From: Channa argus
Lineage: Eukaryota
Reading direction: 5' to 3'
NCBI RefSeq assembly: GCF_033026475.1
Contig: NC_090205.1
Location: 6,037,544-6,101,543, forward strand
DNA length: 64,000 nt
The position numbers and the translations under genes were made by a program. Position 1 is the first letter of the stretch. Each line of letters starts with the position of its first letter. The notes beneath the pieces were generated by a model. That model saw only the letters and a program-made list of their open reading frames with translations. It searched no databases and was not told the DNA's origin. Below are positions 20,773 through 22,885 of this stretch, piece after piece.

Positions 20773-22885
20773 ATTTACCAGTGTTACACTTTTTTCTCAC
20801 AGATCCACTGCTGAGATACTTCACATGACAGGTCATTCCACTTGTGACCTTTTTGAACTTTAATTTCTGCACAGTCTTCTCCATCTGTCGAATCTTTATC
20901 CTCATTATTGGGCTCCATCACATCCCAGTACCTAACCGGTCAATGAACAAAAAAACAATCCTGAATATGGACATAAAAAGACTCTTGATGGTCTCTATGC
21001 TGATAACTAAATGTTATGACAGCAGTGGTTCAGTCAGAGCCAACAGTACTGAAACAGACAGGAAGTGTGTCAGCAGTCATTCTAGCAGCTCTGAGAGTCT
21101 CCAGTCAGTGGTGTTCAGAGCAAAATCCTAACTTGAGCTTTTAGGTCTTATTTCCCTTTTATGCCTACTATGTTCTATTTAATCTCTTTTATCTGTTTGT
21201 CTCTTTTCACTCACGTGTTTCAGTTGTATTGGACCAAACACACATTATTTCCAGATGTATTTAGATTTAAACAAAGTGAAGCATATTTCTGTCTTACTTA
21301 AAAGTCAGTGTAGTTCCATCGATCCATCTCCAGGTCCCCTCTTCATCTCTGTCACTCAAACCAATCCAAGTTCCCATTCTGGTGAATGCAGAGAGAAATG
21401 TCTGTTCAATTGAAACAAAAGACAATCGCTGCAATTATATTTTAGTTGTAACCAGCAGGAGTGAGACACAAAGACACAGCACACACACATTCATATCCAC
21501 AAAAAAAGCTGAAACACTTCCATTCATGATACAGTGGATTCAGAAAGCAATCACATGCTCATATTTCTTCCTCATGTCCATATCATCCAAAAACAAAGAA
21601 TGATGAACATATTCTTTGTTTGGACACTCTGCACCTGTTCTTCAGCACTGTTAATGACCACCAGGTCTGCTCCTCTCTTTCTGCAGTCCTCTCTGCCTTT
21701 TGTCCATGAACCAGACTCAGTGGACAGGAGATAACAGGAGTAGCTGAACATCATCCATCCTGCAGGACAAGTTCTCTCTGCAACGTAAAACAATAGATAT
21801 TAGAAATGTATCAAGGCACAACTCCATCTACTGCCAGAGAAAGATGGTATGAAGTAAAACATGCAAACAGAGGAGTTTGAAGTGTCTTCACATCTTAACA
21901 TTTTAATGTGCTCACAGAATGTGAACGTGTCCTTAATCCTAAACATATAGTGAACAGTTCACAAGTCTAAATCCTTAAAAGATCAAATGTCCTGTCCCTC
22001 ACTGCCCACACTCACTGACTCTGACACTTGTTCAGTTCCTCTGCTGTTTTATTGAGTCTGGTATTCAGCTGGTCTCTCTCTTCAGTCAGTGAAGACACTT
22101 TGTTCTTAATGTCCTGGAGAAGCTCAGTCAGGTTGGTTTTGATGCTGGAGAGTTCTGCAGCTGCACGTTGTGCTGAGTTATCATCTGAAAGCACATGAAT
22201 TAATATAATTTAATACCACATACTATTTAGCCAGATCAGATTCTTTGCTATTTTTCCCCCAATCTTTATAATGAACTGATGCCCATAATTTAAGTTCCAT
22301 GTTCTAAAAATCTCATGTAAAAAAACACATTTGCATACAGGCATAATGCTAATCTAATATTAGAGAATAAGTGATGTTGTGAAGTTGCTGTTTGTCTTGT
22401 GCTGAACATCTACATCCACTTTTCCTGCTAAACTTTAGTCAAAACTACGAACTCTAAAAAATAATTAAATTTTTACATTTTAAAATGCCATAAAAGCTTT
22501 GCAAAACAAAAACATAATTAAGAAACCTAACAAGTTAGATTTGTAAAAGTATATGACAATACTTCTGAAACTCATAAAGTGACTCTGGTATTAACTTATA
22601 AAACACAGACTCACAGTGGACACCGAGGACGATGAGTCCAGCCAACAGGAAAACACTCAGCAGCCCCAGACAGAGACCAATAGTTTTATAAAGTCTCCTG
22701 TCGGAGCTCCTGGGACCTGAACAGAAAAAGACCAGTAAACACAGTCTTAGATCAGAAATAACATATGATTAAAACAGATTTAATCTCCACTCAGCAATTA
22801 ATTAAACATTCTTACTTGTCTGATTTGTTGAAGGACTTGAGTAAACAGACTTGTCATGTTCAACATTGACATATATTTCCTCCAT
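20773..22885 (-). CDS. Type II transmembrane C-type lectin receptor, gene A (apparently intact; CD209/CLEC4/CD23-like architecture)
   Basis: The gene has six exons on the - strand, whose products assemble in frame.
- Cytoplasmic exon, 22885-22816: MEEIYVNVEHDKSVYSSPSTNQT, donor GTAAGA.
- TM exon, about 22715-22613: ...YKTIGLCLGLLSVFLLAGLIVLGVH.
- Neck exon, about 22187-22016: coiled-coil DDNSAQRAAAELSSIKTNLTELLQDIKNKVSSLTEERDQLNTRLNKTAEELNKCQSQ.
- CTLD1, about 21772-21622: TCPAGWMMFSYSCYLLSTESGSWTKGREDCRKRGADLVVINSAEEQ.
- CTLD2, about 21423-21305: TFLSAFTRMGTWIGLSDRDEEGTWRWIDGTTLTF.
- CTLD3, about 20930-20773: KYWDVMEPNNEDKDSTDGEDCAEIKVQKGHKWNDLSCEVSQQWICEKKV, stop TAA.
A variant polyA signal ATTAAA and ATTTA elements lie about 120 nt downstream of the stop. 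Confidence 0.75.

What the first reader, a model, noticed from the sequence alone, without database searches (positions are those of the whole stretch)
20880..20930. Sugar-binding loop of the last CTLD exon is hypervariable between near-identical paralogs: EPN (gene A) vs QPD (gene C) vs EPS (gene D)
Within one exon family, the stretch that encodes the Ca2+ site-2 loop differs sharply. Gene A (20900-20930) reads WDVMEPNNEDKDSTDGEDCAEI. Gene C (34760-34810) reads WDVKQPDNLLKYSTDGEDCAEI. Gene D (42170-42230) reads WDEGEPSDNKCYSFTGEDCAEL. The flanking roughly 110 nt (GHKWNDLSCEVSQQWICEKKV and the 3' UTR) stay more than 95% identical. Between A and C, about 10 of 30 nucleotides differ in the loop, against about 3 of 110 outside it. 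The changes include both substitutions (E to Q and N to D) needed to switch an EPN (mannose/fucose-type) motif to QPD (galactose-type). Replacements focused on the ligand-contact loop suggest diversifying selection, or gene conversion from an unseen paralog, on carbohydrate specificity.
Basis: partly seen in the sequence, partly recalled or inferred. Interest (0 to 1): 0.75.

Follow-up and report, generated by a model that had tools for sequence, protein, structure and literature searches.

The report
Shuffled sugar-binding loops in snakehead lectins
The sharp EPN/QPD/EPS differences are real, but only one of the three copies is an intact lectin gene, and the differences look like loop segments swapped between members of a large fish immune-lectin family, a familiar way for such families to evolve.

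Summary
The window is northern snakehead (Channa argus) DNA. It carries a minus-strand tandem array of CD209/CLEC4-like type II membrane C-type lectin genes mixed with retrotransposons.

The quoted peptides and counts are correct. A and C differ at 10 of 32 loop bases against 3 of 102 in the rest of the exon. A and D differ at 23 of 39 loop bases. The clustering is non-random. The 3' UTR claim is wrong: it is 89% identical, not over 95%.

Only gene A (243 aa, EPN) is intact among the three.
- "Gene C" keeps exons 1, 2 and 6. Exons 3-5 and the exon-6 acceptor are deleted.
- "Gene D" lacks exons 1-2, and its exon-5 donor is GT>GA.

C's 23-residue QPD segment is identical to that of two full-length C. 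argus paralogs outside the window (XP_067371565, XP_067371567). C's tail matches gene A. The informative sites split 6:0 then 0:7, so C's exon is a recombinant.

Synonymous sites and non-coding patches are equally mosaic. Across 33 Channa paralogs, the last exon is nearly uncoupled from the rest of the domain (r = 0.22).

Best reading: birth-and-death evolution with segment and last-exon exchange. Diversifying selection is plausible but not shown. This is a new member of a known kind, of modest interest.

The parts
20784..22885 (-). Gene A. An intact six-exon type II transmembrane C-type lectin of 243 aa. Exons: e1 22816-22885, e2 (TM) 22615-22716, e3 (neck) 22020-22184, e4 21635-21777, e5 21298-21401, e6 20784-20931.
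   Evidence: All splice sites are canonical and the CDS is in frame at 732 nt. Pfam Lectin_C scores 88.9 bits. Exons match C. argus XP_067372126 (P0001) and KAF P0127 at 100%. The region is reproduced at 99.87% in an independent assembly.
20883..20921 (-). Gene A loop cassette VMEPNNEDKDSTD (EPN at 20907-20915). This is the finding's site.
   Evidence: It aligns without gaps to the QPD...GEDC...WND stretch of the solved SRCL/CL-P1 CRD.
34658..34804 (-). Relic C exon 6, an intact 48-codon ORF plus stop. It carries a QPD loop (34757-34795) and an A-type tail. Its native AG acceptor is missing.
   Evidence: Loop residues 1-23 equal P0121/P0047, and tail residues 24-48 match A at 24 of 25.
34805..34806 (-). 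Deletion junction in relic C. Intron 2 is fused directly to exon 6. The equivalent of A's 20931-22215 (exons 3, 4, 5 and the acceptor) is absent. The join shows GG(TA) microhomology.
   Evidence: Self-blastn shows A 20718-20930 = C 34592-34804 and A 22216-23269 = C 34806-35854. Three-way alignment is, and the exon scan.
35213..35483 (-). Relic C exons 1 (35414-35483) and 2 (35213-35314). Both are intact with splice sites and are 97% identical to A.
42058..42205 (-). Relic D exon 6. It carries an EPS loop (42157-42195) and an extra Cys within the loop. The ORF is intact.
   Evidence: The best protein match is the EPS paralog P0002 on another chromosome, at 70%.
42611..42716 (-). Relic D exon 5 (42613-42716). 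Its splice donor is mutated GT>GA at 42611-42612.
46100..46638 (-). Relic D exon 4 (46100-46242) and exon 3 (46486-46638). No exon 1 or 2 lies upstream: A's 22511-23036 has no counterpart between 46941 and 47000.
48289..50434 (-). Gene E, a neighbouring intact six-exon paralog. It has EPN but WKD in place of WND. Its exon 6 belongs to a different class from that of its closest relative P0025.
26759..28994 (-). Relics B1 (26759-27064) and B2 (28770-28994). Each holds only exon 1-2 copies.
53253..56980 (-). Pseudogene F. It has stop codons in exon 5 and a Trp>Cys change in exon 6.

Best explanation
What it is. The site is the last exon of a tandemly duplicated family of type II transmembrane C-type lectin receptor genes in Channa argus. 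The family belongs to the teleost 'DC-SIGN/CLEC4-like' subgroup of group II. The last exon encodes the Ca2+ site-2 tripeptide (EPN, QPD or EPS), the loop that follows it, the Glu of GEDC, and the WND motif.

How the differences arose. The family evolves by birth and death: duplication, retrotransposon insertion, and deletions that leave headless or bodiless relics. It also exchanges sequence between paralogs, by non-allelic gene conversion or unequal crossing-over. Two scales of exchange are seen:
- Whole last exon, with breakpoints in intron 5.
- Within the exon, with breakpoints in the conserved block STDGEDCAEI-KVQ-GHKWND. This block separates two variable patches, the loop and the post-WND tail.

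The three copies in this window:
- Gene A is a working EPN receptor.
- 'C' is a dead A-like copy. Its exon 6 carries the QPD loop cassette native to the P0047/P0121-type exon, joined to an A-type tail.
- 'D' is a dead copy about 98% identical to A through exons 3-5. Its exon 6 is of the EPS (P0002-like) type.

The sharp loop contrasts therefore mostly reflect older divergence between exon-6 types brought next to young scaffolds. They do not reflect rapid point mutation after recent duplication.

Shown versus inferred:
- Shown: gene structures, the mosaic pattern, and the recombinant nature of C.
- Inferred from established C-type lectin biochemistry: EPN confers mannose/fucose-type binding, QPD galactose-type, and EPS is a DCIR-like motif.
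- Inferred, not shown: selection for a diverse glycan-recognition repertoire keeps the different cassettes in the functional paralogs.
For: Identity and family:
- Best hits are C. argus CD209 antigen-like proteins.
- An independent C. argus assembly matches window 10784-31762 at 99.87%.
- Pfam Lectin_C hits gene A. The closest solved single CRDs are Mincle, DC-SIGN/DC-SIGNR, SIGNR1, BDCA-2, ASGR and MGL.

Relic status of C and D.

Recombinant C:
- The loop is identical (23 of 23) to P0121, P0047 and P0049. The tail matches A at 24 of 25, against 17 of 25 for P0121 and 16 of 25 for P0047.
- Informative sites split 6:0 then 0:7 or 0:8.
- Direction by parsimony: CEVSQ-type tails go with EPN or EPS loops in 8 other Channa sequences, and PCG(H/L)S tails go with QPD in 3. 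C is the only exception.

Mosaicism unrelated to protein selection:
- A-D is 1-2.5% divergent across exons 3-5 and their introns, then 23 of 39 nt differ with sharp borders.
- Loop pS is 0.78 against 0.17 outside it.
- Non-coding patches in intron 2 (13 in 32 nt) and intron 5 are equally divergent.

Family-wide uncoupling of exon 6:
- r = 0.22 over 528 pairs.
- 18 pairs have exons 4-5 at 85% or more but exon 6 at 65% or less.
- P0047 and P0121 have exon 6 at 92% but exons 4-5 at 65%.

Other support: the loop is the most variable segment, at 2.2 bits against 0.95-1.35 elsewhere. LINE and LTR fragments lie between and inside the genes.
Against: - No nucleotide sequence of the putative donor genes (XP_067371565, XP_067371567) could be obtained. 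The tract, its age and its direction therefore rest on protein-level comparison and parsimony.
- Some RefSeq models in tandem arrays are themselves hybrids. P0001 begins in relic B1. Part of the protein-level 'exon-6 uncoupling' could therefore come from chimeric gene models.
- In the A-C pair, loop synonymous divergence (0.20) is not clearly above background (0.12) while dN is much higher. That is what selection-driven divergence between the two loop types would also give.
- C and D could not be checked in the independent assembly, because L003 ends at window 31762.
Confidence: 0.7

Rival explanations
1. In-situ diversifying (positive) selection. After recent duplication of functional genes, point substitutions accumulated in the ligand-contact loop because new sugar specificities were favoured.
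For: - A-C loop dN/dS is about 1.4, against about 0.1 in the rest of the exon.
- The loop is the most variable segment in 33 Channa paralogs.
- The second variable patch lies directly after WND, which from general knowledge of the fold is also near the binding site.
- In the retrieved set, QPD within this exon class was seen only in C. argus, not in C. striata. This hints at a lineage-specific EPN>QPD switch at some point.
Against: - C and D are not functional lectin genes.
- C's loop is identical to the loops of other paralogs, so it was not generated at this locus.
- 23 of 39 nt differ between A and D, including saturated synonymous sites.
- 5 of 6 adjacent bases differ between A and C (GAGGAT versus CTTCTT).
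- Equally dense clusters of differences lie in introns.
- The dN versus dS contrast is not significant.
Confidence: 0.15
2. Neutral decay. C and D are pseudogenes, and the loop differences are random drift after loss of function.
For: - C and D are truncated.
- D's loop has an unpaired Cys where the related P0002 has Trp.
- D's exon-5 donor is mutated.
Against: - All three exon-6 ORFs are intact.
- Differences are strongly clustered rather than spread.
- The rest of the exon is 97% (A-C) or about 91% (A-D) identical.
- C's loop equals that of annotated full-length proteins.
Confidence: 0.05
3. Assembly artefact. The C and D structures, and C's chimeric exon, come from mis-joining reads of different paralogs in a repetitive array.
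For: The region is a repeat-rich tandem array. C and D lie outside the stretch that could be compared with the second assembly. RefSeq flags the gene A model as partial.
Against: - C differs from A by 3-11% in every segment, so it is not a join of A-derived reads.
- The deletion junction shows microhomology typical of a real deletion.
- The 21 kb that could be compared is collinear at 99.87%.
- Each loop sequence is unique in the window.
Confidence: 0.05

Closest known systems
Teleost-expanded DC-SIGN subgroup of group II C-type lectin domain proteins (Zelensky & Gready 2004, PMC514892)
   Same: Type II membrane proteins with a neck and one C-terminal CTLD. [quoted passage not shown]
   Different: That paper reports the expansion and clustering in Fugu. 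It does not report exon-6 or loop mosaicism, or relic copies. The snakehead array is much larger, spanning at least 0.7 Mb.
Mammalian group II myeloid lectin receptors: DC-SIGN/CD209 and SIGNRs (EPN), DCIR/CLEC4A (EPS), MGL/CLEC10A and ASGR (QPD) (PMC3679074)
   Same: The same fold, topology and three tripeptide types at Ca2+ site 2. Sequence similarity is E = 1e-19 to 1e-28.
   Different: In mammals the three motif types sit in long-diverged genes. Here they sit on scaffolds that are 93-98% identical in exons 4-5. The snakehead QPD loop lacks the Trp/Gly-rich QPDxW...G loop of ASGR/MGL-type galactose binders, so galactose specificity cannot be assumed.
Engineered EPN>QPD switch in mannose-binding protein A (Drickamer 1992; my own knowledge, not checked here)
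   Same: The same two substitutions, E>Q and N>D, distinguish A from C.
   Different: In MBP-A the switch alone gave weak galactose preference, and extra loop residues (Trp, Gly-rich insert) were needed for high affinity. No binding data exist for the fish proteins.
Birth-and-death immune receptor families with gene conversion, such as rodent Ly49/KLRA, NKG2, KIR and MHC (general knowledge)
   Same: Tandem arrays, many pseudogenes and fragments, and mosaic genes in which ligand-contact segments are uncoupled from frameworks.
   Different: A different receptor lineage and a different ligand class (glycans). No population or functional data are available here.
SRCL / CL-P1 CRD (PDB 2ox8, 2ox9)
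   Same: Gapless alignment from the tripeptide through GEDC to WND. The loop length is identical: QPDNWGHGHGPGEDC versus EPNNEDKDSTDGEDC.
   Different: SRCL is a scavenger receptor with a collagen domain. Only the loop architecture is comparable.

Membership tests
C-type lectin domain, Ca2+-dependent carbohydrate-recognition type (group II, type II membrane receptors: CD209/CLEC4/ASGR-like), for gene A | Significant match to the Lectin_C profile and to solved group II CRDs | tested here: met
   PF00059 scores 88.9 bits against a cut-off of 22.6. Mincle, DC-SIGN, DC-SIGNR, SIGNR1, BDCA-2, ASGR and MGL match at E = 1e-19 to 1e-28.
C-type lectin domain, Ca2+-dependent carbohydrate-recognition type (group II), for gene A | Type II topology: short N-terminal tail, one TM helix, a neck, and a C-terminal CTLD encoded by three exons | tested here: met
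   Six-exon model. The hydropathy peak is 2.78 over residues 36-54, within IGLCLGLLSVFLLAGLIVLGVH. The CTLD is split over e4, e5 and e6.
C-type lectin domain, Ca2+-dependent carbohydrate-recognition type (group II), for gene A | Six CTLD cysteines (long-form), the WIGL motif, and site-2 ligands E/Q-P-N/D ... E ... W-N-D | tested here: met
   Cys at 116, 127, 144, 215, 231 and 239. WIGL, EPN, GEDC and WND are all present.
C-type lectin domain, Ca2+-dependent carbohydrate-recognition type (group II), for gene A | Measured Ca2+-dependent sugar binding and its specificity | not testable with these tools
   This needs recombinant CRDs and glycan arrays.
Functional paralogous gene, for 'gene C' | A complete exon set with usable splice sites, giving a full CTLD | tested here: not met
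   Exons 3-5 and the exon-6 acceptor are absent. A cryptic AG at about 34816 would give only a 108-aa product with one third of a CTLD. No such protein was retrieved by the one homolog search run with it, which gave only 5 candidates.
Functional paralogous gene, for 'gene D' | A complete exon set with usable splice sites | tested here: not met
   There is no exon 1 or 2, and the exon-5 donor is GA instead of GT.
Positively selected hypervariable site (dN/dS above 1) | A significant excess of non-synonymous over synonymous change in loop codons | tested here: inconclusive
   In the A-C loop, dN = 0.33 and dS = 0.23 (8.5 versus 1.5 changes), which is not significant. In the A-D, C-D and D-C. striata (P0010) loops pS is saturated (0.78-0.85) and pN/pS is about 0.6-0.7. 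A proper test needs all family members and recombination-aware site models.
Non-allelic gene conversion or recombination mosaic | Adjacent segments of one sequence have different closest relatives | tested here: met
   For C, the loop equals P0121/P0047 (6 of 6 informative sites) and the tail equals A (7 of 7 or 8 of 8), with Fisher p = 3e-4 to 6e-4. For A-D, about 98% identity changes abruptly to 41%. Exon 4-5 identity and exon 6 identity correlate only at r = 0.22.
Non-allelic gene conversion or recombination mosaic | Donor tract identified at nucleotide level, with defined end points | not testable with these tools
   DNA of the genes encoding XP_067371565 and XP_067371567 could not be fetched.

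The most novel reading that the evidence does not exclude
The truncated copies are not just debris. Relic last exons such as C and D, which keep intact reading frames, might serve as a germline store of alternative sugar-binding loop cassettes. Gene conversion would copy these into working receptor genes through the conserved GEDCAEI-KVQ-GHKWND block. This would be an evolutionary-timescale analogue of pseudogene-templated diversification in chicken immunoglobulin genes. The array could then re-assort EPN, QPD and EPS specificities onto the same signalling scaffold.
Probability: 0.1. Interest if true: 0.6.

Novelty: new member of a known kind. Interest (0 to 1): 0.3.

Why it matters
The result shows how a fish innate-immune lectin repertoire changes its predicted sugar specificity. 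The mechanism is re-assortment of a short loop cassette or a whole last exon among tandem paralogs, rather than stepwise mutation.

It also identifies a natural 'loop swap' pair. Gene A (EPN) and XP_067371565 (QPD) are 93% identical in exons 4-5. This pair would make a clean test of how far the tripeptide and loop alone set specificity.

There is a practical caution as well. Comparing exon copies in such arrays without first building gene models mixes functional genes with relics. It can also mistake recombination for positive selection.

Tried and rejected
1. Fetching donor-gene DNA. The look-up of encoding contigs failed for all RefSeq C. argus proteins tried (P0047, P0001, P0049, P0011, P0031). 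It worked only for GenBank-annotated proteins.
2. Searching for an older-annotation (KAF) protein with the QPD loop. The third homolog search found none. The KAF locus L004 lies 0.67 Mb away and has only ASGR-like QPD exons.
3. Looking up my spliced gene E protein, to reach C and D in the independent assembly.
4. Searching for an annotated mini-protein from relic C (exon 2 spliced to a cryptic AG, in frame, 108 aa). No match was found. The cryptic site has a poor pyrimidine tract, so I treat the preserved frame as coincidence.
5. Checking whether the loop differences could be a small inversion like the one found in intron 5. They are not, judged by eye only with no tool call.
6. Looking for the donor inside the window. 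Each loop sequence occurs only once at up to 3 mismatches.
7. D's long intron 4 looked at first like an ancestral feature shared with C. striata. It is a LINE fragment with an APE endonuclease ORF, in the opposite orientation to the gene, so I dropped that idea.
8. The literature search for EPN/QPD plus gene conversion in C-type lectins returned nothing. Three C. argus papers mention CD209 only in expression lists.
9. Structure prediction was not run. It returns no coordinates and would add nothing beyond the sequence alignments to solved CRDs.
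Full report
**1. What the sequence is**

The feature lies on the minus strand.

A tblastn scan with these peptides finds five copies of this last exon:
- A: 20787-20927
- C: 34661-34801
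- D: 42061-42201
- E: 48292-48417
- F: about 53254-53331

I assembled gene A from six exons with canonical splice sites: 22816-22885, 22615-22716, 22020-22184, 21635-21777, 21298-21401 and 20784-20931. It encodes a 243-aa protein with:
- a short N-terminal tail;
- one hydrophobic helix (residues 36-54);
- a heptad-like neck;
- a C-terminal C-type lectin domain (Pfam PF00059, 88.9 bits) with six cysteines, WIGL, EPN, GEDC and WND.

The best database hits are Channa argus 'CD209 antigen-like protein C' entries. P0001 (XP_067372126) matches gene A's exons 2 and 5 at 100% and exons 4 and 6 at 94-96% over spans that run past the exon edges.

An independent C. argus assembly (GCA_004786185.1, CM015721.1 5,947,373-5,968,343) is collinear with window 10784-31762 at 99.87%. 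It shows no coding difference in gene A.

The closest solved single-domain structures are Mincle, DC-SIGN/DC-SIGNR, SIGNR1, BDCA-2, ASGR and MGL. This is therefore the fish-expanded DC-SIGN/CLEC4-like subgroup of group II C-type lectins described for Fugu (PMC514892).

**2.

A versus C:
- 10 substitutions fall within 32 nt (20886-20917). They include the E>Q and N>D changes.
- 3 fall in the other 102 coding nt.
- 7 fall in 66 nt of 3' UTR, which is 89% identity.

A versus D: 23 of 39 loop nucleotides differ, with sharp borders. The left border follows ACTGGGATG and the right border precedes GGAGA.

Permutation scan statistics give p = 0.004 for A-C (exon 6 plus UTR) and p below 5e-5 for A-D.

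**3. Two of the three 'genes' are relics**

Self-alignment and exon-by-exon blastn show the following.

Copy C:
- It has exons 1 and 2 (35414-35483 and 35213-35314). Both are intact and 97% identical to A.
- Intron 2 then runs straight into exon 6.
- The counterpart of A's 20931-22215 is deleted. That is the neck exon, both upstream CTLD exons and the exon-6 acceptor.
- The junction at 34805/34806 shows GG(TA) microhomology.

Copy D:
- It has exons 3-6 but no exon 1 or 2.
- Its exon-5 donor is GA instead of GT.

The rest of the window:
- two exon-1/2-only relics (B1, B2);
- an exon-4/5 relic without a last exon (38.1-40.4 kb);
- an intact gene E, with EPN but WKD instead of WND;
- pseudogene F, with stop codons;
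- LINE and LTR retrotransposon fragments.

This is a classic birth-and-death array.

**4. The QPD loop was not made at this locus**

Full-length C. argus proteins that are not encoded in the window carry exactly C's first 23 residues, YWDVKQPDNLLKYSTDGEDCAEI. They have different tails:
- P0047/P0049 (XP_067371567-9): KVQTGHKWNDVPCGHSLKWICEKNV
- P0121 (XP_067371565): KVQQGHKWNDVPCGLSMKWICEKKV

C's tail, NVQKGHKWNDLSCEVSQQWICEKKV, is A's tail with one change.

At the 13-14 positions where A differs from these paralogs, C follows the paralog at all 6 loop sites. It follows A at all 7 or 8 downstream sites (Fisher p = 6e-4 and 3e-4).

Across Channa, CEVSQ-type tails accompany EPN or EPS loops in eight other sequences. 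PCG(H/L)S tails accompany QPD in three. C is the single exception, so C is the recombinant.

The breakpoint lies in the conserved block STDGEDCAEI-KVQ-GHKWND, which separates the two variable patches.

An assembly chimera is unlikely. C differs from A by 3-11% in every segment, and each loop sequence is unique in the window. However, C and D lie outside the part I could compare with the second assembly.

**5. The mosaic is not specific to coding sequence**

A and D are only 1-2.5% divergent through exon 3, intron 3, exon 4, the alignable part of intron 4 and exon 5. They are about 3% divergent in the last 150 nt of intron 5. Embedded in this background are:
- a rearranged patch in intron 5, which includes an exact 26-bp inversion (A 21245-21270 versus D 42560-42585);
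- the loop cassette.

Between A and C, the densest cluster of differences is in intron 2, at 13 in 32 nt.

Nei-Gojobori counts show that loop synonymous divergence is raised too:
- A-D: pS is 0.78 in the loop against 0.17 outside it.
- C-D: pS is 0.85 in the loop against 0.06 outside it.

Positive selection on amino acids does not predict this. A different, older ancestry of the segment does.

Only the A-C loop gives dN/dS above 1 (0.33/0.23, against 0.012/0.125 outside). It rests on 8.5 versus 1.5 changes and is not significant.

**6. Family-wide picture**

In an alignment of 33 Channa CTLDs, the loop is the most variable segment, at a mean of 2.2 bits against 0.95-1.35 elsewhere.

Identity in exons 4-5 barely predicts identity in exon 6 (r = 0.22 over 528 pairs):
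- 18 pairs are at least 85% identical in exons 4-5 but 36-65% identical in exon 6. Examples are A/D, A/P0121, P0011/P0126 and P0057/P0098.
- P0047 and P0121 are 92% identical in exon 6 but 65% identical in exons 4-5.

In the window itself, gene E matches P0025 at 90-96% in exons 1-4 but only about 66% in exon 5. It has an exon 6 of another class. Whole-last-exon exchange through intron 5 therefore seems common. C adds an intra-exon case.

One caveat applies. Some RefSeq models in this array are hybrids. P0001 starts in an out-of-frame piece of relic B1. The protein-level statistic may therefore be inflated. The A/D and E cases are physical DNA in this window.

Among the related fish proteins retrieved with a parsable motif, QPD is the majority state: 83 QPD, 22 EPN and 1 EPS.

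**7. Mechanism and function**

By established C-type lectin biochemistry, the tripeptide, the Glu of GEDC and the Asn-Asp of WND ligate the site-2 Ca2+ that binds sugar hydroxyls. The motif types are:
- EPN: typical of mannose/fucose binders such as DC-SIGN.
- QPD: typical of galactose-type binders such as MGL.
- EPS: the DCIR motif (PMC3679074).

Gene A's loop aligns without gaps to the QPDNWGHGHGPGEDC loop of SRCL.

The snakehead QPD loop (QPDNLLKYSTDGEDC) lacks the Trp/Gly-rich features of ASGR/MGL-type loops that other Channa paralogs do have. A switch to galactose specificity is therefore a hypothesis, not a conclusion.

My best explanation (confidence about 0.7) is segmental exchange among paralogs within a birth-and-death array. 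Selection for repertoire diversity plausibly retains distinct cassettes in the intact genes.

**8. Verdict**

The 'gene conversion from an unseen paralog' branch is right. The 'diversifying selection between near-identical paralogs' branch is undemonstrated, and it was framed on two dead copies.
- The phenomenon belongs to a well-known kind, mosaic evolution of tandem immune receptor families, so novelty is limited. The natural EPN/QPD pair on near-identical scaffolds is a useful experimental handle.

Noticed in passing
window 21245-21270 versus 42560-42585 (intron 5 of A and D): There is an exact 26-bp inversion between the two paralogous introns. A reads TTAAATCTAAATACATCTGGAAATAA, and D carries its perfect reverse complement. 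The inversion sits inside an indel-rich patch, while the surrounding intron is about 97-98% identical.
   Followed up: partly
window 26769-26801 (relic B1) and gene A exon 2: The RefSeq 'partial' protein XP_067372126 (P0001) begins with LDSSVSLSTIG. This is an out-of-frame reading of the relic TM exon B1, spliced to gene A exon 2. It is a hybrid or read-through model. Gene A's own exon 1 (MEEIYVNVEHDKSVYSSPSTNQT) is intact at 22816-22885.
   Followed up: partly
window 48289-50434 (gene E): This is an apparently intact six-exon paralog with EPN but WKD in place of WND, so a Ca2+ ligand is lost. The C. striata counterpart P0131 keeps WND. E matches P0025 at 90-96% in exons 1-4 and about 66% in exon 5, but P0025's exon 6 is of the ASGR-like QPD class.
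   Followed up: partly
window 34816-35314 (relic C): Splicing exon 2 (phase 1) to a cryptic AG (aaatag|TATGTGG) would keep the exon-6 frame. The product would be a 108-aa tail-TM-stub protein. No annotated protein matches it, and the pyrimidine tract is poor.
   Followed up: partly
window 23833-25878 (+), 43262-44047 (+), 61200-62480 (-): These are retrotransposon ORFs: a LINE reverse transcriptase between A and B1, an APE-type endonuclease inside D's 3.4-kb intron 4, and an LTR-type RT/RNase H near the window end. A's intron 4 is only 233 bp.
   Followed up: partly
window 38083-40408: This is a relic with partial exon 4 and exon 5 copies but no last exon. The counterpart of E's exon 6 is missing between 37807 and 37997, while E's 3' flank (37405-37807) and the exon-5 region (37997-38207) are 91-95% identical to E.
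   Followed up: no
L003 and L004 (C. argus CM015721.1, 5.95 Mb and 6.62 Mb); L001 and L002 (C. striata CM065177.1, 21.58-21.76 Mb): The lectin array spans at least 0.67 Mb in C. argus and at least 0.18 Mb in C. striata. In the retrieved C. striata proteins, the GEDCAEI exon class carries only EPN. In C. argus it carries EPN, EPS and QPD.
   Followed up: partly
window 20765: One of the seven A-C 3' UTR differences is polymorphic in gene A. The second C. argus assembly carries C's base at this site.
   Followed up: no
proteins P0008 and P0009 (C. argus, not in the window): These paralogs have exons 4-5 that are 94-96% identical to A and D. In their last exon, DDRELVE replaces the EPN motif and FDD replaces WND, so they have presumably lost Ca2+/sugar binding. 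P0009's exon 5 is 100% identical to D's.
   Followed up: no
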